A DNA stretch of 35,498 nt from a virus (taxonomy: Duplodnaviria > Heunggongvirae > Uroviricota > Caudoviricetes): the IMG/VR virus record IMGVR_UViG_2531839531_000004, positions 1 through 35,498 of that record. The stretch is one strand, 5' to 3'. The notes under the pieces are model-generated. The model searched no databases, was not told the origin of the DNA, and saw only the letters and a list, made by a program, of their open reading frames with translations. Both the position numbers and the translations under genes were made by a program. Below are positions 1 through 35,498 of the stretch, in pieces. Within the stretch, counting starts at the first letter, position 1, and every line of letters starts with the position of its first letter.

Positions 1-32
1 ATTTTTGAACTGCGCCCCAGATCTTGGACAAC

Positions 33-897
33 TTATGCAGCCTGACTCAATCGATATTGTACCGGGCTAAGACCGCCAAGTTTTTCCTTTATCCTCAATT
101 GATTATAATAGTTTATGTAATCAATGATGTCTCGCTTTAAGTCCTCCACATTTTTATATTCATTGAGGTAATAACATTCTGATTTCAATGTTCCAAAAAA
201 GCTCTCTATAACTGCATTATCAAGACAATTTCCCCGGCGAGACTTACTCTGGACTATACCGCTATCCTTTAACCATCGTTGCCACCGGGACATCTGATAT
301 TGCCAACCTTGATCGCTGTGCAGTATGGGGTGTTCATCTTTCGACAGCTGTTTCAGCGCATCCGTAAGCATAGTCTGCACCATTGAAGGTTGAGGGCGAG
401 TGGCGAGGTTATAGGAAATTATTTCTCCATTATAAAGATCCATGACGGGCGACAAATACAGCTTCTTGCCATTCACTTTAAATTCAGTGACATCTGTAAC
501 CCACTTCTCGTTGGGGCGTTTTGCATCAAAATTGCGTTTCAGGAGATTATCGCAAATTCGTCCTTGTTCTCCTTTATATGAACGGTATTTTTTAACGTCG
601 GATCAGGCTGCTAATACCCAGTTCCTTCATCAGTTTTCTGACGGTTTTACCATTAAATAAAACCCCCTCGTTACGACATGCCAGCCTGATGCGTCTGTAA
701 CCATAGCGGCCTTTGTGCTGGTGATAAATTTTCAGCACAAGCGCTCTGGCAGACTGATACCGGTCAGGAGCAGCAAGCCGTCTGACATGATAGTAAAATG
801 TACTCCGGGGCAGCCCGGAAACAATTAACAATCGGGACAATGGCCATTCCTGCCTTAGTTCATTCACAATGCTCACTTTTTCCTGAACGTTGAGCAT
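33..897 (-). pseudogene. IS3-family transposase OrfB (integrase core), disrupted by a 1-bp indel
   Basis: Two ORF pieces (592-897 and 33-476) that read as one continuous OrfB if a single base is removed near 592-597 (CGT-TAA gives a stop; without the extra T it reads RRKKYRSYKGE...). The C-terminal piece carries an rve-like core. Confidence 0.75.
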
Positions 898-1379
898 GTT
901 TTCTGCTGAACCAAGGCTTTCAGCTTTTTTAAGTAGGCATTCTCGACCCTGAGTTGTTCAAGTTCTTCTCTCTCATCTTTGGTTAGTGTTGGTAGTGGTG
1001 GTGCTGAAATGGCGCTTTTATCCGGCACAGGAATACTCTTTTTATTTTTTCGAATGAAAGCATCTTCGCCATATTTTCTATATTTTTCAAGCCAGTTGCA
1101 TACAGTACCAAAGGCTGGTATTCCGTGTTTTACCGCTACTTCACGAACAGAAAAACAGTCATCCACGACTTCTTTTACTACTGTGAGTTTTAACTCAGCA
1201 GAATAGCGTCCTTTTTTACCCGTAAGTATGCTTATCCCATGTTCCCGATAGGCATAAGCCCATTTTCTTACTGTGCAGGGACTGATACCGTACATCCTTG
1301 CTACAGATTTCAGACTCAACTCTCCCTCCAGGTACTTTTCTGATACTACCTTTTTGAACTCCAATGAAAACTTTTCCAT
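873..1379 (-). CDS. IS3-family transposase OrfA (HTH DNA-binding subunit)
   Basis: 168-aa ORF with ATG at 1379. Has HTH region and a C-terminal leucine-zipper-like segment (LEQLRVENAYLKKLKAL) typical of IS3 OrfA. A-AAA-AAG slippery motif near its 3' end (about 925-931, minus strand). Confidence 0.85.
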   Translation of the reverse strand: MEKFSLEFKKVVSEKYLEGELSLKSVARMYGISPCTVRKWAYAYREHGISILTGKKGRYSAELKLTVVKEVVDDCFSVREVAVKHGIPAFGTVCNWLEKYRKYGEDAFIRKNKKSIPVPDKSAISAPPLPTLTKDEREELEQLRVENAYLKKLKALVQQKTCSTFRKK

Positions 1380-1445
1380 GCATCCTCAGTTTTTGGTCTG
1401 GTGTCTAACTTTGGGGCGCAGTTCATTTTTAATGGACACTATCGT

Positions 1446-2093
1446 ATGAAACACCGGACCTGGATCACTGAAGCTTTACGTCTTCACTTTGAAGAACATT
1501 TACCCCGGGTTGTGGCCGGGCGTCGCCTGGGTGTACCAAAATCAACAGTTTGTAGTATGTTCGTGCGCTTTCGGAGAGCTGGCCTTTCGTGGCCTTTGCC
1601 CGCAGGCATGTCGGAGCAGGAACTTGATGCCTGCCTTTACGGACAATTTTCCACGGTACCAGTCGTACGTCCTGAAAGCACCGTTATATCCGAAGCCCCC
1701 GTGGTAAAAAAACGTCCCCGGCGGCCCAACTTCCCTTATGAGTTTAAAATCGCCTTAGTGGAGCAGTCACTGCAGCCCGGAGCCTGTGTGGCGCAGATCG
1801 CCCGGGAAAACGGAATCAACGATAACCTGCTCTTCAACTGGCGCCATCAATACCGGAAAGGTGGCCTGCTGCCTTCCGGAAAAAATATGCCGGCACTGCT
1901 TCCCGTGACGTTAACGCCGGAGCCGGATAATAAAATCCCGGCCCCCGCACAGGAACCAGAGCAGATAAATACACCGTCCGACAGTCTGTGTTGTGAGCTG
2001 GTTCTGCCGGCCGGAACTCTCAGGCTTAAAGGTAAACTGACGCCGGCGTTATTACAGACACTTATCCGCGAAATAAAAGGGAGCAGCCACTGA
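1446..2093 (+). CDS. tnpA: IS66-family accessory protein (orf1/TnpA-like) with N-terminal extension
   Basis: ATG at 1446; the track start at 1401 lies inside the IS3 repeat. C-terminal half (PNFPYEFKIALVEQSLQPGACVAQIARENGINDNLLFNWR) parallels orf1 of copy 2 (RRIFSNEFKLHMVELASKPNANVAQLAREHGVDNNLIFKWL). Confidence 0.7.
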   Translation: MKHRTWITEALRLHFEEHLPRVVAGRRLGVPKSTVCSMFVRFRRAGLSWPLPAGMSEQELDACLYGQFSTVPVVRPESTVISEAPVVKKRPRRPNFPYEFKIALVEQSLQPGACVAQIARENGINDNLLFNWRHQYRKGGLLPSGKNMPALLPVTLTPEPDNKIPAPAQEPEQINTPSDSLCCELVLPAGTLRLKGKLTPALLQTLIREIKGSSH

Positions 2094-2440
2094 TGATATC
2101 TCTCCCTGCAGGTTCGCGTATCTGGCTGGTTGCAGGTATCACCGATATGCGAAATGGCTTTAACGGCCTGGCATCAAAAGTTCAGAACGTCCTGAAGGAT
2201 GACCCGTTCTCCGGACACCTGTTCATCTTCCGCGGACGCCGGGGTGACCAGATAAAAGTGTTGTGGGCTGACAGTGACGGACTGTGCCTCTTCACCAAAC
2301 GCCTGGAGCGGGGCCGCTTCGTCTGGCCAGTCACCCGTGACGGCAAGGTGCACCTTACTCCGGCTCAGTTATCCATGCTTCTTGAAGGTATCAACTGGAA
2401 GCACCCGAAACGAACGGAACGCGCTGGAATCCGCATATAA
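2093..2440 (+). CDS. tnpB: IS66-family TnpB (orf2)
   Basis: 115 aa; closely parallel to copy 2 orf2 (GxRIWLVAGxTDMRxxFNGL...HLFIFRGRRGD...LWAD.DGLCLFTKRLE). Start overlaps the orf1 stop. Confidence 0.85.
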   Translation: MISLPAGSRIWLVAGITDMRNGFNGLASKVQNVLKDDPFSGHLFIFRGRRGDQIKVLWADSDGLCLFTKRLERGRFVWPVTRDGKVHLTPAQLSMLLEGINWKHPKRTERAGIRI

Positions 2441-2459
2441 CCCGTTGTAAAGTGAGGAT

Positions 2460-4031
2460 ATGGACACCTCACTTGCTCATGAGAACGCCCGCCTGCGGGC
2501 ACTGTTGCAGACGCAACAGGACACCATCCGCCAGATGGCTGAATACAACCGCCTGCTCTCACAGCGGGTGGCGGCTTATGCTTCCGAAATCAACCGGCTG
2601 AAGGCGCTGGTTGCGAAACTGCAACGTATGCAGTTCGGTAAAAGCTCAGAAAAACTTCGTGCAAAAACCGAACGGCAGATACAGGAAGCACAGGAGCGAA
2701 TCAGCGCACTTCAGGAAGAAATGGCGGAAACGCTGGGTGAGCAATATGACCCGGTACTGCCATCCGCCCTGCGCCAGTCTTCAGCCCGTAAACCGTTACC
2801 GGCCTCACTTCCCCGTGAAACCCGGGTTATCCGGCCGGAAGAGGAATGCTGTCCTGCCTGTGGTGGTGAACTCAGTTCTCTGGGATGTGATGTGTCAGAG
2901 CAACTGGAGCTTATCAGCAGCGCCTTTAAGGTTATCGAAACACAACGTCCGAAACAGGCCTGTTGCCGGTGCGACCATATCGTGCAGGCACCAGTACCTT
3001 CAAAACCCATTGCACGCAGTTATGCCGGAGCGGGGCTTCTGGCCCATGTTGTCACCGGGAAATATGCAGACCATCTGCCGTTATACCGCCAGTCAGAAAT
3101 ATACCGTCGTCAGGGAGTGGAGCTGAGCCGTGCCACACTGGGGCGCTGGACAGGTGCTGTTGCTGAACTGCTGGAGCCGCTGTATGACGTCCTGCGCCAG
3201 TATGTGCTGATGCCCGGTAAAGTCCATGCTGATGATATCCCCGTCCCGGTCCAGGAGCCGGGCAGCGGTAAAACCCGGACAGCCCGGCTGTGGGTCTACG
3301 TCCGTGATGACCGTAACGCCGGTTCACAGATGCCCCCGGCGGTCTGGTTCGCGTACAGTCCGGACCGGAAAGGTATCCATCCACAAAATCACCTGGCCGG
3401 TTACAGCGGTGTGCTTCAGGCCGATGCTTACGGTGGTTACCGGGCGTTATACGAATCCGGCAGAATAACGGAAGCCGCGTGTATGGCTCATGCCCGGAGA
3501 AAAATCCACGATGTGCATGCAAGAGCGCCCACCTACATCACCACGGAAGCCCTGCAGCGTATCGGTGAACTGTATGCCATCGAGGCAGAGGTCCGGGGCT
3601 GTTCAGCAGAACAGCGTCTGGCGGCAAGAAAAGCCAGAGCCGCGCCACTGATGCAGTCACTGTATGACTGGATACAGCAACAGATGAAAACACTGTCGCG
3701 TCACTCAGATACGGCAAAAGCGTTCGCATACCTGCTGAAACAGTGGGATGCACTGAACGTGTACTGCAGTAATGGCTGGGTGGAAATCGACAACAACATC
3801 GCAGAGAACGCCTTACGGGGAGTGGCCGTAGGCCGGAAAAACTGGATGTTCGCGGGTTCCGACAGCGGTGGTGAACATGCGGCGGTGTTGTACTCGTTGA
3901 TCGGCACATGCCGTCTGAACAATGTGGAGCCAGAAAAGTGGCTGCGTTACGTCATTGAACATATCCAGGACTGGCCGGCAAACCGGGTACGCGATCTGTT
4001 GCCCTGGAAAGTTGATCTGAGCTCTCAGTAA
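2460..4031 (+). CDS. tnpC: IS66-family transposase TnpC (orf3)
   Basis: 523-aa ORF with N-terminal coiled-coil, CxxC...CxC zinc-finger-like region, and the conserved HLPLYRQSE, [11 protein letters not shown] and ADAYGGY segments shared with copy 2. Confidence 0.85.
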
Positions 4032-4133
4032 ATATCAATACGGTTCTGACGAGTCGCTTACTAGTGAGTTGTATCTATTTATTTTCCAATAAATACAATT
4101 GGTTATGTGTTTTTAGGTGGGGCGATCGTGAGG

Positions 4134-8659: not shown

Positions 8660-8730
8660 ATGAAAAAACTAACCTTTGAAATTCGATCTCCAGCACATCA
8701 GCAAAACGCTATTCACGCGGTACAGCAAAT
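8660..8730 (+). pseudogene. ninB: ninB 5' fragment (first ~23 codons), truncated by IS66 insertion
   Basis: ATG at 8660 gives MKKLTFEIRSPAHQQNAIHAVQQ, the lambda NinB N-terminus as I recall it. The reading frame runs straight into the IS66 left repeat at 8731. Confidence 0.8.
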
Positions 8731-8815
8731 GTAAGCGTAAAGCCAATGCCGTCTGTAACACCTGCTCCTTGCAGACTAAATTAGAGCTCCTTCTAAATTA
8801 GACGGAGTTCTATTG

Positions 8816-9247
8816 ATGGATAAACCTACAGACTGGCGCTCCGGAACCCGCCGGATATTTTCTAATGAATTTAAACTTCATATGGTTGAACTGGCTTCGA
8901 AACCAAATGCCAATGTTGCACAACTGGCCCGGGAACATGGCGTTGATAACAACCTGATTTTTAAATGGCTACGCCTCTGGCAAAGAGAAGGACGTATTTC
9001 TCGTAGAATGCCTCCAACTATTGTAGGCCCTACAGTATCACAATCTTTTCCGGCCTCTCCGACTCTGGTTCCAGTGGAACTTATCGACACCCCGCGCTGT
9101 GCTACAGATGCTCCTGCTCCGGAGGCATTATCAGTTGCTTGCGCAGCTTCCTGCCATGTGGAATTCCATTACGGTAAAATGATGCTGGAAAATCCTTCAC
9201 CAGAGCTGCTCACGGTGTTGATCCGTGAGCTGACCGGGAGGGGATGA
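8816..9247 (+). CDS. tnpA: IS66-family accessory protein (orf1/TnpA)
   Basis: ATG at 8816 (MDKPTDWRSGTRRIFSNEFKLHMVELASKPNANVAQLAREHGVDNNLIFKWLR...); HTH-like region; stop overlaps the orf2 start. Confidence 0.8.
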   Translation: MDKPTDWRSGTRRIFSNEFKLHMVELASKPNANVAQLAREHGVDNNLIFKWLRLWQREGRISRRMPPTIVGPTVSQSFPASPTLVPVELIDTPRCATDAPAPEALSVACAASCHVEFHYGKMMLENPSPELLTVLIRELTGRG

Positions 9248-9597
9248 TGATTTCACTCCCATCAGGTACCCGTATCTGGCTCGTTGCCGGCGTTACTGAT
9301 ATGCGTAAATCCTTCAACGGTCTGGGGGAGCAGATACAGCATGTGCTGGATGATAACCCCTTCTCCGGTCACCTGTTTATCTTCCGTGGCCGACGGGGAG
9401 ACACGATTAAAATCCTGTGGGCTGATGCTGATGGTCTGTGCCTGTTCACCAAACGCCTTGAGGAAGGTCAGTTTATCTGGCCTGCGGTGCGTGACGGTAA
9501 GATATCCATTACCCGCTCGCAACTGGCAATGCTCCTCGATAAGCTGGACTGGCGTCAGCCAAAAACATCCCGCCTTAACGCACTGACAATGTTGTAA
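9244..9597 (+). CDS. tnpB: IS66-family TnpB (orf2)
   Basis: 117 aa, parallel to copy 1 TnpB. Confidence 0.85.
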   Translation: MMISLPSGTRIWLVAGVTDMRKSFNGLGEQIQHVLDDNPFSGHLFIFRGRRGDTIKILWADADGLCLFTKRLEEGQFIWPAVRDGKISITRSQLAMLLDKLDWRQPKTSRLNALTML

Positions 9598-9627
9598 AAA
9601 ACGCCGGGCCGGATTATAAAAACGGCC

Positions 9628-11240
9628 ATGAGTCAGAAATACCTCATTCGCATCGCTGAGCTGGAAAGGCTGCTCTCTGAGCAGGCTGAAGCCCTCCGTC
9701 AGAAAGACCAGCAACTGAGTCTGGTTGAAGAGACGGAGGCCTTCCTGCGCTCTGCACTGGCACGTGCCGAAGAAAAGATCGAAGAAGATGAGCGAGAAAT
9801 AGAGCATCTGCGGGCTCAGATAGAAAAACTGCGCCGGATGCTGTTTGGAACCCGTTCTGAAAAACTGCGTCGTGAGGTTGAACAGGCTGAAGCCCTGCTG
9901 AAACAACGCGAGCAGGAAAGCGATCGTTACAGTGGGCGTGAGGATGACCCGCTGGTTCCCCGCCAGTTGCGACAGTCGCGCCATCGTCGTCCGTTACCGG
10001 CACATCTCCCCCGTGAAATATACCGCCTGGAGCCTGAAGAAAGCTGTTGCCCGGAGTGTGGCGGTGAGCTGGATTATCTGGGGGAAGTCAGCGCAGAACA
10101 ACTGGAACTGGTGAGCAGCGCCCTGAAAGTGATCCGCACAGAACGGGTAAAAAAGCCTGTACAAAATGTGACTGCATCGTTGAAGCACCGGCGCCGTCCC
10201 GCCCGATAGAGCGTGGTATCGCGGGCCCCGGATTACTTGCCCGCGTGTTAACGGGAAAATACTGCGAACACCTGCCACTGTATCGTCAGAGTGAAATCTT
10301 TGCCCGACAGGGTGTCGAACTGAGCCGTGCATTACTCTCCAACTGGGTTGACGCGTGCTGCCAGTTAATGACGCCGCTGAATGATGCCCTGTACCGTTAT
10401 GTGATGAATACCCGCAAGCTTCACACTGACGACACACCGGTAAAGGTACTGGCACCGGGCCTGAAAAAGACGAAAACAGGGCGCATCTGGACGTATGTCC
10501 GGGATGATCGCAATGCGGGTTCGTCATCTCCTCCGGCGGTCTGGTTCGCGTACTCATCGAACCGGCAGGGGAAACACCCGGAGCAACACCTCCGCCCCTT
10601 CCGGGGTATCCTGCAGGCGGATGCGTTCACAGGTTATGACAGGCTGTTCAGTGCAGAACGTGAAGGTAGTGCGCTGACAGAAGTTGCGTGCTGGGCTCAT
10701 GCCCGGAGAAAAATCCACGATGTATACATCAGCAGCAAAAGTGCGACGGCAGAAGAAGCCCTGAAGCGAATCAGTGAACTGTACGCCATCGAGGATGAAA
10801 TACGGGGATTACCAGAGTCAGAACGTCTTGCAGCCAGGCAGCAGCGAAGCAAAGCGTTACTGACGTCGCTGCATGAATGGATGGTGGAGAAGAATGGCAC
10901 GCTGTCGAAAAAATCCAGACTGGGCGAAGCGTTCAGCTATGTACTGAATCAGTGGGACGCCCTCTGTTATTACAGTGATGACGGTCTGGCGGAGGTGGAC
11001 AATAACACAGCGGAAAGAGCGCTTCGTGCAGTCTGTCTCGGAAAGAAAAATTACGTGTTCTTCGGTAGCGATCACGGCGGCGAGCGTGGAGCACTGCTGT
11101 ACGGGCTGATCGGCACCTGCCGTCTGAACGGTATCGATCCGGAAGCGTATCTGCGCCATATTCTGAGCGTACTGCCGGAATGGCCCTCCAACCGTGTTGA
11201 CGAACTCCTGCCATGGAACGTAGTACTCACCAATAAATAA
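9628..11240 (+). pseudogene. tnpC: IS66-family transposase TnpC, split by a 1-bp frameshift at an A-run
   Basis: ORFs 9628-10209 and 10245-11240 together cover a full TnpC. In the -1 frame from the A6 run at 10149-10154 the sequence reads [49 protein letters not shown], aligning with copy 1 (...[46 protein letters not shown]). Confidence 0.8.
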
Positions 11241-11270
11241 GCGTCAATACGGTGCTCCGTTGACGCTTAC

Positions 11271-11765
11271 AAGGACTGCTGGCAAACGCCGCTTTGGCTT
11301 TTTGATGCACTGGATATTGAGTTTGGATTCTGGCTGGATTCGGCAGCGAGCGACAAAAATGCTCTGTGTGCTCACTGGCTAACTGAGGCCGACGACGCGC
11401 TCAATTCTGAGTGGGTAAGCCACGGTGCAATCTGGAATAACCCACCGTACAGCAATATCAGGCCGTGGGTGGAAAAAGCCGCTGAGCAGTGCATACAACA
11501 GCGACAGACGGTAGTTATGCTTGTGCCAGAGGATATGTCAGTCGGATGGTTCAGCAAGGCTCTGGAGAGTGTCGACGAAGTTCGCATTATCACTGATGGA
11601 CGGATTAATTTTATCGAACCATCGACAGGGCTGGAGAAGAAGGGAAACAGCAAAGGCTCCATGCTGCTGATTTGGCGACCGTTCATCAGTCCTCGACGGA
11701 TGTTTACTACCGTATCCAAAGCGGCATTGATGGCGATCGGGCAGGGCGTCAGGAGGGCGGCATGA
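11271..11765 (+). pseudogene. Phage N6-adenine DNA methyltransferase (Dam-like), 5'-truncated at the IS66 boundary
   Basis: Frame is open from the IS66 right end with no start codon. Translation contains FDALDIEFGFWLDSAASDKNALC...WNNPPYS (NPPY motif IV of N6A methyltransferases). Stop TGA at 11763-11765 overlaps the ninE ATG. Confidence 0.7.
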
Positions 11766-13645: not shown

Positions 13646-14728
13646 TTAGAACTGGTAAACCATACCTACAGCAACGATATCATCGGTAGCAACGCCAGAT
13701 GCTTTCGTGAAATCGCTCTTATCAATCAGGTTGATTTTGTAGTCAACAAAAGTGGACATATCTTTGTTGAAGTAATAGGTTGCACCTACATCAACATATT
13801 CAACCAGGTCCTGATCACCCCAAACACCCAAGTCTTTTCCTTTAGAATGCAGGTAAGCAACGGATGGACGCAGGCCGAAGTCGAACTGATATTGTGCAAC
13901 AGCTTCGAAGTTTTGTGCTTTGTTGGCAATATGGTTATTACCAAAAACAGTCATGTTCTGGGTTTCAGAATAGGTGGTGGCCAGATAGATGTTGTTCGCA
14001 TCATATTTCAGACCAGCTGCCCATACTTCAGCATTTTGACCAGAAGCATTCAGACCGTTGTTACCGTAGATAACCTGATTATTAGTGCGATCAGATTTAG
14101 CATAGGTTGCACCCACGCCGAATCCTTCATACTCATAAGTAGTTGAGAAACCGAAACCATCGCCATTAGCTTCAGTTACTTCATTTCGGTCATTTTTGCC
14201 CTGATACTGAGCTGCAAAGTTCAGGCCATCAACCAGACCAAAGAAGTCGTTGTTACGATAAGTTGCAACACCTGTGGTGCGACCAGTCATGAATACATCT
14301 GTTTGGGTCCAGGTATCGCCACCGAATTCTGGCAGAACGTCAGTCCACGCACCGATGTCGTATGCTACACCGTAGTTACGGCCGTAATCGATTGAGCCGT
14401 AGTCACCGAATTTCAGGCCTGCAAATGCAAGACGGGTTTTGTCTTTGGAGGAACCTTGAGATTCAGCGCGGTTGCCTTTGAATTCATATTCCCACTGACC
14501 GAAACCAGTCAGTTGATCGTTGATTTGGGTTTCACCTTTGAAGCCAAGACGGGCATAAGTAGTATCACCATCATCTGCATCATTAGAGGAGAAGTAGTGC
14601 TTAGCATTAACTTTCCCGTACAGATCCAGCTTGTTACTGTCTTTATTATAAATTTCAGCTGCCTGAGCAGACATCGCCATCAGTACTGATGCAGCTACAG
14701 CAGAAATTGCCACTGTTAATTTTTTCAT
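13646..14728 (-). CDS. nmpC: Outer-membrane general porin, NmpC/Lc (OmpC/PhoE family), intact
   Basis: 360-aa product with signal peptide ([23 protein letters not shown]), beta-barrel porin pattern and C-terminal ...VGMVYQF. Matches E. coli NmpC as I recall it. AT-rich upstream region 14729-15270. Confidence 0.92.
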
Positions 14729-33938: not shown

Positions 33939-35498
33939 ATGGGTAAAGGCAGCAGTAAGGGGCATACTCCGCGCGAAGCGAAGGACAACCTGAAGTCCAC
34001 GCAGTTGCTGAGTGTGATCGATGCCATCAGCGAAGGGCCGGTTGAAGGTCCGGTGGATGGATTAAAAAGCGTGCTGCTGAACAGTACGCCAGTGCTGGAC
34101 AGTGAGGGGAATACCAATATCTCCGGCGTCACGGTGGTGTTCCGGGCCGGTGAGCAGGAGCAGACACCGCCGGAGGGATTTGAATCCTCCGGCTCCGAGA
34201 CGGTGCTGGGTACGGAAGTGAAATACGACACGCCGATCACCCGGACCATCACGTCGGCAAACATTGACCGACTGCGTTTTACCTTCGGCGTGCAGGCACT
34301 GGTGGAAACCACCTCAAAGGGGGACAGGAATCCGTCGGAAGTCCGCCTGCTGGTTCAGATCCAGCGTAATGGTGGCTGGGTGACGGAAAAAGATATCACC
34401 ATTAAGGGCAAAACCACCTCGCAGTATCTGGCCTCGGTGGTGGTGGGTAACCTGCCGCCGCGCCCGTTCAATATCCGGATGCGCAGGATGACGCCGGACA
34501 GCACCACAGACCAGCTGCAGAACAAAACGCTCTGGTCGTCATACACCGAAATCATCGATGTGAAACAGGGCTACCCGAACACGGCACTGGTCGGCGTGCA
34601 GGTGGATTCGGAGCAGTTCGGCAGCCAGCAGGTGAGCCGTAATTATCATCTGCGCGGGCGCATTCTGCAGGTGCCGTCGAACTATAACCCGCAGACGCGG
34701 CAATACAGCGGTATCTGGGACGGGACGTTTAAACCGGCATACAGCAACAACATGGCCTGGTGTCTGTGGGATATGCTGACCCACCCGCGCTACGGCATGG
34801 GGAAACGTCTCGGTGCGGCGGATGTGGACAAATGGGCGCTGTATGTCATCGGCCAGAATTGTGACCAGTCGGTGCCGGACGGCTTTGGCGGTACGGAGCC
34901 GCGCATCACCTGTAATGCCTGGCTGACCACACAGCGCAAGGCGTGGGATGTGCTCAGTGATTTCTGCTCGGCGATGCGCTGTATGCCGGTATGGAACGGG
35001 CAGACGCTGACGTTCGTGCAGGACCGACCGTCGGATAAGGTGTGGACCTATAACCGCAGTAATGTGGTGATGCCGGATGATGGTGCGCCGTTCCGCTACA
35101 GCTTCAGCGCCCTGAAGGACCGCCATAATGCCGTTGAGGTGAACTGGATTGACCCGAATAACGGCTGGGAGACGGCGACAGAGCTTGTGGAGGACACGCA
35201 GGCCATTGCCCGTTACGGTCGTAACGTCACGAAGATGGATGCTTTTTGGCTGTACCAGCCGGGGGCAGGCACACCGCGCCGGGCTGTGGCTGATTAAAAC
35301 AGAACTGCTGGAAACGCAGACCGTGGACTTCAGCGTGGGTGCCGAAGGGCTTCGCCATGTACCGGGCGATGTCATTGAAATCTGCGATGATGACTATGCC
35401 GGTATCCGCACCGGCGGGCGCGTGCTGGCGGTAAACAGCCAGACCCGGACGCTGACGCTCGACCGTGAAATCACGCTGCCATCTTCCGGCACCACGCT
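33939..35498 (+). pseudogene. J: Central tail fibre / host-specificity protein J, interrupted by a +1-nt frameshift; 3' end beyond the window
   Basis: The first 452 codons match lambda gpJ, then stop at 35295-35297. After the T5 run at 35244-35248 the next frame stays open to the window end and reads GCTSRGQAHRAGLWLIKTELLETQTVDFSVGAEGLRHVPGDVIEICDDDYAG..., which I recall as the lambda J continuation. Confidence 0.8.

What the first reader, a model, noticed from the sequence alone, without database searches (positions are those of the whole stretch)
10149..10154. IS66 copy 2 transposase broken by a 1-nt deletion in an A-run
TnpC is split exactly at an A6 run. Adding one A would restore the conserved CxxC zinc-finger segment and fuse the two ORFs. 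Together with the T-run frameshift in J (35244-35248), there are two homopolymer-length indels in 35 kb. That pattern is as compatible with homopolymer sequencing error as with genuine decay, and it matters for deciding whether this IS copy is active.
Basis: seen in the sequence. Interest (0 to 1): 0.4.

Follow-up and report, generated by a model that had tools for sequence, protein, structure and literature searches.

The report
One-base frameshift in ISEc47 transposase
One of five copies of a known jumping gene (ISEc47, IS66 family) in this E. coli draft genome has its transposase gene split by one missing A in a run of seven; this is ordinary, and more likely an assembly error inside a repeat than real gene decay.

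Summary
The run at 10149-10154 is A6. It splits tnpC of a 2,540-bp ISEc47 element (window 8731-11270) inside its zinc-finger domain. Adding one A gives a 537-aa TnpC 100% identical to WP_000080164.1.

The window is NCBI contig AQFE01000019.1.
- Four other ISEc47 copies in the same assembly all have A7, intact TnpC and perfect 8-bp target duplications.
- The same insertion in the same prophage of a complete chromosome (CP189652.1) is also A7.

So A6 is derived and private to this copy.

Against CP189652.1 the window differs by 5 SNPs, one 407-bp deletion next to the IS, and four 1-nt indels. All four indels lie in multi-copy DNA (an IS3-family element, ISEc47, J). There are none in about 27 kb of unique DNA.

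Elsewhere, A6 occurs on at least five different IS haplotypes. It is rare in complete genomes (6 of 3,394 records) and common in one batch of 2012-13 drafts.

My estimates: about 0.65 consensus error in a repeat, about 0.3 genuine slippage pseudogene. Reads are needed to settle this.

A6 also creates an in-phase A_AAA_AAG heptamer whose -1 slip would give wild-type TnpC. It has no stimulator and is not conserved.

Ordinary; low interest.

The parts
8731..11270 (+). ISEc47 (IS66 family), 2,540 bp, with ends GTAAGCG...CGCTTAC. This copy has no target-site duplication.
   Evidence: It is 99.5-99.8% identical to elements annotated 'IS66-like element ISEc47'. Ends are shown. The flanks are CAGCAAAT and AAGGACTG, which do not match.
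8816..9247 (+). tnpA (143 aa, HTH_Tnp_1)
   Evidence: Gene call (L054) and Pfam. The exact protein was found on many contigs.
9247..9597 (+). tnpB (116 aa, TnpB_IS66)
9628..10209 (+). tnpC N-terminal fragment as encoded by A6 (193 aa): LZ_Tnp_IS66 plus the first 39 of 46 positions of zf-IS66, then an out-of-frame tail
10149..10154 (+). A6 run (A7 in intact copies). It is in phase as gtA AAA AAG.
10155..11240 (+). Remainder of tnpC in the -1 frame: second Cys pair of the zinc finger, DDE_Tnp_IS66 and the IS66 C-terminal element. The mechanical ORF call starts at 10245.
8730..8731 (.). Deletion junction. 407 bp present in CP189652.1 are missing directly left of the IS: ninB codons 24-146, the start of dam and the left 8-bp duplication.
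   Evidence: About 397 bp are missing versus L061.
11247..11765 (+). Annotated 172-aa ORF that runs from the IS right end into the truncated dam methylase gene. It is a unique marker of this insertion.
   Evidence: carried by only 3 contigs.
35244..35248 (+). T5 run in tail gene J (T4 in homologues), which truncates J at 35297, 250 nt from the contig end
598..598 (-). Extra T, not in a homopolymer, that breaks orfB of the IS3-family element occupying 3-1443

Best explanation
The element is an ordinary ISEc47 (IS66 family), one of at least five nearly identical copies in this genome. Its A6 run is a derived, copy-private shortening of the A7 run that encodes Lys-Lys just before the second Cys pair of the TnpC zinc finger. 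I think the missing A is most likely not in the DNA. It is probably a consensus error made when a 2013 draft assembly resolved a 2.5-kb five-copy repeat, and the T5 in J and the two 1-nt indels in the IS3-family element at the contig start are probably errors of the same kind. On that reading the copy encodes an intact 537-aa transposase.

Shown:
- A6 is in the record.
- A7 is present in four sister copies and in the orthologous copy.
- The repaired protein is identical to intact TnpC.
- All the 1-nt indels lie in repeated DNA.

Inferred: that the indels arose during sequencing or assembly. The platform and the reads were not available.
For: 1. Same-locus comparator. Complete chromosome CP189652.1 carries the same prophage and the same ISEc47 insertion, with the duplication AAGGACTG on both sides. 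The IS is identical at all 2,540 other positions, and there it has A7 and a 537-aa TnpC.

2. Whole window against that genome. There are 5 SNPs, four 1-nt indels (598 +T, 1408 -C, the A-run, the J T-run) and one 407-bp deletion. All four indels lie in the IS3-family element, ISEc47 or J, which together with IS66 copy 1 make up about 23% of the window. There are no indels and only 2 SNPs in about 27 kb of unique DNA. By my own arithmetic, 0.23^4 is about 0.003 if indels fell uniformly. Four small indels against five SNPs is also far above the usual ratio.

3. The T5 allele of J is absent from all 8,403 matching places in complete E. coli genomes. Its truncated product occurs on no other contig of the gene index. 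It lies 250 nt from the contig end.

4. A6 is polyphyletic. A6 copies L052/L055, L053 and L059 are otherwise identical to the A7 copies L001, L067 and L062/L063.

5. A6 occurs in only 6 of 3,394 matching complete-genome records. It is seen repeatedly in drafts with prefixes AIF*/AIG*/AQE*/AQF*, and several times twice per assembly.

6. A6 calls come from demonstrably error-prone assemblies. At the traT site, L053, whose contig has traH, traG, traD and traI all split, reads A6; the same insertion is A7 in L111 and L115. At one locus of the O104:H4 clone, 3 of 17 complete assemblies read A6 and 14 read A7.
Against: - The same assembly calls A7 correctly in four other copies and resolves copy-specific SNPs.
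- All other 45 runs of 6 nt or more in the window, including nine 7-mers and two 8-mers, agree with CP189652.1. So there is no general homopolymer problem.
- Two of the four indels are not typical homopolymer errors: 598 is a singleton and 1408 is CC to C.
- Genuine A6 alleles plausibly exist. The allele is found in two metagenome scaffolds, in DEC2A, DEC2B and DEC2C at the same locus, and in both 2009EL-2071 and the similar-sized FDAARGOS_401.
- This strain really has diverged from CP189652.1: it has a 407-bp deletion next to this very copy.
- The sequencing platform is unknown to me.
Confidence: 0.65

Rival explanations
1. Genuine pseudogene. Replication slippage deleted one A from the A7 run in this copy after it inserted. 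Normal decoding then yields a 193-aa N-terminal fragment (leucine zipper plus half a zinc finger) and no DDE catalytic domain. The copy is non-autonomous. It keeps both terminal repeats, tnpA and tnpB, so TnpC from the four intact copies could still mobilise it in trans.
For: - The ancestral state at this locus is A7, and intact copies exist in the same genome.
- The run is the longest homopolymer in the element, and A7 to A6 has happened on at least five haplotypes, including in metagenome assemblies and in three DEC2 assemblies at one locus.
- The rest of the assembly's long homopolymers are correct.
- The copy sits in an IS-ridden prophage and has already lost 407 bp of flank and its left duplication.
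Against: - The strain differs from CP189652.1 by only 2 SNPs in about 27 kb of unique DNA. Two or four independent real frameshifts in the same 35 kb, all in repeated DNA, are therefore unexpected.
- A6 is about 0.2% of matching records in complete genomes, but 1 of 5 copies in this draft.
Confidence: 0.3
2. Functional recoding or a switch. The A6 allele is expressed through -1 ribosomal frameshifting on the in-phase heptamer A_AAA_AAG, or through transcriptional slippage, so that low levels of full-length TnpC are made. A7 and A6 interconversion would then act as an attenuator of transposition.
For: - The phase is exactly gtA AAA AAG, and the -1 product is identical to wild-type TnpC.
- IS2 in L057 uses the same in-phase heptamer, GCA AAA AAG.
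- A_AAA_AAG is among the most efficient E. coli motifs (PMC4066793).
- A6 copies with perfect 8-bp duplications exist at six or more sites, sometimes two per assembly.
Against: - No downstream structure: the 80 nt after the site fold no better than shuffles, z = +1.24.
- Without stimulators, motifs gave at most about 10 times a 0.055% background (PMC4066793).
- The arrangement is not conserved. A7 is the rule, and A6 copies are scattered on haplotypes identical to A7 copies. The duplications are therefore explained by insertion before the change.
- IS66 copy 1 in this window has no A-run at the homologous site.
Confidence: 0.05

Closest known systems
ISEc47 (IS66 family), with intact copies such as NZ_CP042885.1 126143-128683 (TnpC WP_000080164.1)
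   Same: Same three-gene layout (tnpA, tnpB, tnpC) and same ends. It is 99.8% identical in nucleotides, and the repaired TnpC is 100% identical.
   Different: One A fewer in the A7 run, and no 8-bp target duplication because 407 bp of left flank are deleted.
Frameshifted IS66-family tnpC pseudogenes annotated by PGAP, for example the ISEc43-type copy next to sigA in E. coli O104:H4 2009EL-2071 and FDAARGOS_349
   Same: The same A7 to A6 change at the homologous run; these are annotated 'frameshifted'.
   Different: A different IS66 subgroup (about 94% identity) and a different locus. At that locus 14 of 17 clone-mates read A7.
IS3-family programmed -1 frameshift sites (IS2, IS911, IS3: A_AAA_AAG)
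   Same: Identical slippery heptamer in the same codon phase. A -1 slip would fuse an upstream DNA-binding part to a downstream DDE domain.
   Different: There the two-frame layout is the conserved wild type and is helped by stimulators. Here it is a rare derived allele with no detectable stimulator.
Homopolymer-length consensus errors in draft or long-read assemblies
   Same: Single-base length changes that break otherwise intact genes. They are confined to repeated DNA and contig ends, and disagree with a finished genome of a near-identical strain.
   Different: Not proven here. The other 45 long runs are correct, and two of the four indels are not in long runs.

Membership tests
IS66 family / ISEc47 | Three consecutive genes tnpA (HTH), tnpB (TnpB_IS66) and tnpC | tested here: met
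   Pfam gives HTH_Tnp_1, TnpB_IS66, and LZ_Tnp_IS66 + zf-IS66 + DDE_Tnp_IS66 + DDE_Tnp_IS66_C, in that order.
IS66 family / ISEc47 | Single uninterrupted tnpC encoding the DDE transposase | tested here: not met
   It is split at the A6 run into 193-aa and 331-aa ORFs. It becomes uninterrupted, and 100% identical to WP_000080164.1, only after adding one A.
IS66 family / ISEc47 | Terminal inverted repeats starting GTAAGCG | tested here: met
   GTAAGCGTAAAGCC at 8731 and GTTGACGCTTAC ending at 11270.
IS66 family / ISEc47 | 8-bp target-site duplication | tested here: not met
   The flanks are CAGCAAAT and AAGGACTG. The same insertion in CP189652.1 has AAGGACTG on both sides, and the other four copies in this assembly have perfect duplications. 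The loss here is therefore secondary, caused by the 407-bp deletion.
IS66 family / ISEc47 | Near-identity to the named element | tested here: met
   99.5-99.8% identity over the full length to copies annotated ISEc47.
Programmed -1 ribosomal frameshift site | X_XXY_YYZ slippery heptamer in the zero-frame phase | tested here: met
   gtA AAA AAG, with codons starting at 10147, 10150 and 10153.
Programmed -1 ribosomal frameshift site | Stimulatory element (downstream stem-loop or pseudoknot, or upstream SD-like sequence) | tested here: not met
   The 80 nt downstream have an MFE of -19.9 kcal/mol against a shuffle mean of -23.9, z = +1.24. An upstream SD-like element was not formally scanned.
Programmed -1 ribosomal frameshift site | Two-frame arrangement conserved among relatives | tested here: not met
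   A7 (single frame) is present in all but 6 of 3,394 matching complete-genome records. A6 is scattered on haplotypes otherwise identical to A7 copies.
Programmed -1 ribosomal frameshift site | Frameshift product actually made | not testable with these tools
   This needs a reporter assay or protein detection.
Sequencing/assembly artefact | Disagreement with reads or with an independent assembly of the same DNA | tested here: inconclusive
   It disagrees with the orthologous copy in CP189652.1, but that is a sister strain, not the same isolate.

The most novel reading that the evidence does not exclude
The A7 run in IS66-family tnpC might act as a slippage-prone on/off (or high/low) switch. 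A6 alleles arise recurrently, and because they fall in phase as A_AAA_AAG they would still make a trickle of wild-type TnpC by -1 frameshifting. That would leave 'broken' copies weakly autonomous rather than dead.
Probability: 0.06. Interest if true: 0.4.

Novelty: already known. Interest (0 to 1): 0.08.

Why it matters
It matters only for annotation and IS bookkeeping, that is, whether this genome has four or five autonomous ISEc47 copies. Either way the lineage carries active, recently expanded ISEc47: the copies differ by 0-2 SNPs and have perfect duplications. The more useful lesson is methodological. In this contig every single-base indel relative to a finished sister genome lies in repeated DNA, so frameshifts in IS and tail-fibre genes of such drafts should not be read as decay without read support.

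Tried and rejected
- **Same-locus comparators for other A6 copies.** I looked in complete E. coli genomes for the insertions of L052, L051 and L059. None carries the same insertion.
- **Junction scans.** The exact left junction was not found in IMG/VR or JGI metagenome contigs. No GTDB representative genome holds the window.
- **A single A6 lineage spreading by frameshifting.** Rejected, because A6 copies sit on at least five haplotypes, three of them identical to A7 copies.
- **A systematic error at this site in this assembly, or a collapsed-repeat consensus.** Rejected, because four other copies in AQFE01 read A7 and carry copy-specific SNPs.
- **A general homopolymer problem.** Rejected, because all other runs of 6 nt or more agree with CP189652.1.
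- **A downstream frameshift stimulator.** None found.
- **The fused 409-aa IS2 transposase in L057 as a sign of a homopolymer overcall.** It is only an annotated programmed frameshift.
- **Literature.** I found nothing on ISEc47 frameshifts, on IS66 TnpC frameshifting, or on the sequencing platform of AQFE01 or the DEC drafts.
- **'samples_with_this_contig = 3'.** I do not treat this as independent replication. Every AQFE01 contig shows the same count, so it probably reflects stored copies of one assembly.

Full report
**1. What is in the sequence**

Window 10149-10154 is a run of exactly six A (cgggtAAAAAAgcctg). On the + strand, an ORF of 193 aa (9628-10209) is followed by one of 331 aa (10245-11240) in a frame shifted by one base. 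The surrounding 2,540 bp (8731-11270) start with GTAAGCG and end with CGCTTAC. They are 99.5-99.8% identical to elements that RefSeq annotates as 'IS66-like element ISEc47'.

Against an intact copy (L001) the window copy has five substitutions and one missing A in what is otherwise an A7 run. Adding one A gives a 537-aa ORF 100% identical to WP_000080164.1.

Pfam shows the break lies inside the zf-IS66 domain. The N-fragment keeps LZ_Tnp_IS66 and 39 of 46 zinc-finger positions. The second Cys pair (CTKC), DDE_Tnp_IS66 and the C-terminal element follow in the -1 frame.

**2.

An exact-protein look-up identifies the window as NCBI contig AQFE01000019.1 of assembly GCA_000356625.2. Looking up this haplotype's TnpA found four more ISEc47 copies in the same assembly, on contigs 27, 28, 29 and 50. 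All four have A7, a 537-aa TnpC and perfect 8-bp target duplications, and they differ from the window copy by 0-2 SNPs. The genome therefore holds at least five copies of a recently active element, and only the window copy is A6.

**3. The same insertion in a finished genome**

An annotated ORF runs from the IS right end into the truncated dam gene (11247-11765) and is a unique marker of this insertion. It occurs on only three contigs, one of which is the complete chromosome CP189652.1. That genome carries the same prophage and the same ISEc47 insertion, with AAGGACTG duplicated on both sides. Its IS is identical at every other position and has A7 and an intact TnpC. A6 is therefore derived and arose after the insertion.

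Tiling the whole window against CP189652.1 gives:
- five SNPs (244, 657, 986, 7282, 13762);
- one 407-bp deletion directly left of the IS, which removes ninB codons 24-146, the start of dam and the left duplication;
- four single-base indels: +T at 598 and -C at 1408 (both in the IS3-family element at the contig start), A7 to A6 in tnpC, and T4 to T5 in J.

About 27 kb of unique phage DNA show no indel and only two SNPs.

**4. Error or decay?**

*Arguments for a real deletion*
- The same assembly calls A7 correctly in four other copies and resolves copy-specific SNPs.
- All other 45 runs of 6 nt or more, including nine 7-mers and two 8-mers, agree with the finished genome.
- The strain has really diverged from CP189652.1, as the 407-bp deletion shows.
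- A6 alleles are seen elsewhere: at six or more other insertion sites with perfect duplications, in two metagenome scaffolds, and in three DEC2 assemblies at one locus.

*Arguments for an artefact*
- All four 1-nt indels fall in the about 23% of the window that is multi-copy DNA. By my arithmetic the chance of this is about 0.003 if indels fell uniformly.
- Four indels against five SNPs is far above the usual ratio for so close a pair of genomes.
- The T5 allele of J occurs in none of 8,403 matching places in complete genomes and on no other contig of the gene index. It lies 250 nt from the contig end.
- A6 is polyphyletic. Three A6 copies are otherwise identical to A7 copies from finished genomes.
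- A6 occurs in only 6 of 3,394 matching complete-genome records. It recurs, sometimes twice per assembly, in drafts with accession prefixes AIF*/AIG*/AQE*/AQF*. To my knowledge these come from one sequencing centre in 2012-13; I did not verify this here.
- Where a check is possible, A6 calls track assembly quality. The traT-site copy is A6 in a contig whose tra genes are all fragmented (L053), but A7 in L111 and L115. At one locus of the O104:H4 clone, 3 of 17 finished assemblies read A6 and 14 read A7.

I put about 0.65 on an assembly error within a repeat and about 0.3 on a genuine slippage pseudogene. Only reads or Sanger sequencing can decide.

**5. Consequences for activity**

If A6 is real, standard decoding gives a 193-aa N-terminal fragment without the catalytic domain, so the copy is non-autonomous. 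It keeps both ends, tnpA and tnpB, and four intact copies could provide TnpC in trans.

The deletion also happens to create the classic E. coli -1 slippery heptamer in phase (gtA AAA AAG), and a -1 slip would give exactly the wild-type protein. IS2 uses the same in-phase heptamer. Three points argue against this being a programmed site:
- the downstream 80 nt fold no better than shuffles (z = +1.24);
- unstimulated motifs gave at most about ten times a 0.055% background in the systematic E. coli study (PMC4066793);
- the two-frame arrangement is a rare, scattered, derived state rather than a conserved one.

I therefore treat leaky decoding as a minor possibility.

**6. Comparison with known things and verdict**

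This is ISEc47, a known IS66-family element. It carries the commonest kind of lesion, or sequencing error: a one-base change in its longest homopolymer. Two family features fail in this copy, the uninterrupted tnpC and the 8-bp duplication. Both failures are secondary, because the orthologous copy in CP189652.1 has both features.

Nothing here is new. Interest is low. The practical value is a caution against reading frameshifts in repeated DNA of draft assemblies as decay.

Noticed in passing
window 3-1443 (- strand): An IS3-family element lies at the contig start. Its orfB is broken by an extra T at 598 (ACG[T]CGG, not a homopolymer). It also has -C at 1408 and three SNPs relative to the same-locus copy in CP189652.1, where the transposase is intact with its programmed frameshift.
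   Followed up: yes
window ~1444-4061: A second, different IS66-family element (copy 1) has an intact tnpB (115 aa) and tnpC (523 aa). Its right end ...CGCTTAC is at 4061, but no GTAAGCG left end is present where it abuts the IS3-family element. The homologous Lys-Lys site reads CGTCCGAAACAGGCC, with no A-run. The same IS3 + IS66 arrangement occurs on plasmid pKMi025_3 and in CP189652.1.
   Followed up: partly
window 8730/8731: 407 bp (most of ninB, the start of dam and the left target duplication) are deleted directly next to the left end of ISEc47, relative to CP189652.1. This is an IS-adjacent deletion and a real structural difference between the two strains.
   Followed up: yes
window 35244-35248: The T5 run in J (T4 in 8,403 homologous places) truncates J at 35297. 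The allele and its 452-aa product are unique to this contig, and the contig ends 250 nt later, inside a gene that is multi-copy in most E. coli genomes.
   Followed up: yes
L051-L060, L096-L105 (other assemblies): Full-length ISEc47 copies with the same A6 allele sit at seven or more different sites, most with perfect 8-bp duplications. They lie on at least five SNP haplotypes, and three assemblies (AIFX01, AIGT01, AQEX01) carry two A6 copies each.
   Followed up: yes
L002, L003 and the records (E. coli O104:H4, IS66 copy next to sigA): At one locus of a near-clonal group, 3 of 17 finished genomes read A6 and 14 read A7. The same run is therefore unstable, either in vivo or in assembly.
   Followed up: partly
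L053 (JBPHQG010000010.1): traH, traG, traD and traI are all split into fragments around an A6 ISEc47 copy. The same insertion site (duplication GAATTAAC) is A7 in AQFE01000027.1 and CP189653.1. This looks like an indel-rich assembly.
   Followed up: partly
window 11247-11765: The deposited annotation calls a 172-aa ORF that starts at an ATA codon inside the IS right end and reads into the truncated dam methylase gene. It may be an IS-driven fusion or read-through transcript, or simply an annotation artefact.
   Followed up: no
window ~14950 (upstream of the prophage porin gene at 13646-14728, - strand): A G-run differs from the closest RefSeq prophage (G5TT against G9 in L061) but is identical in CP189652.1. 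It lies in the putative promoter region of the lysogenic-conversion porin.
   Followed up: no
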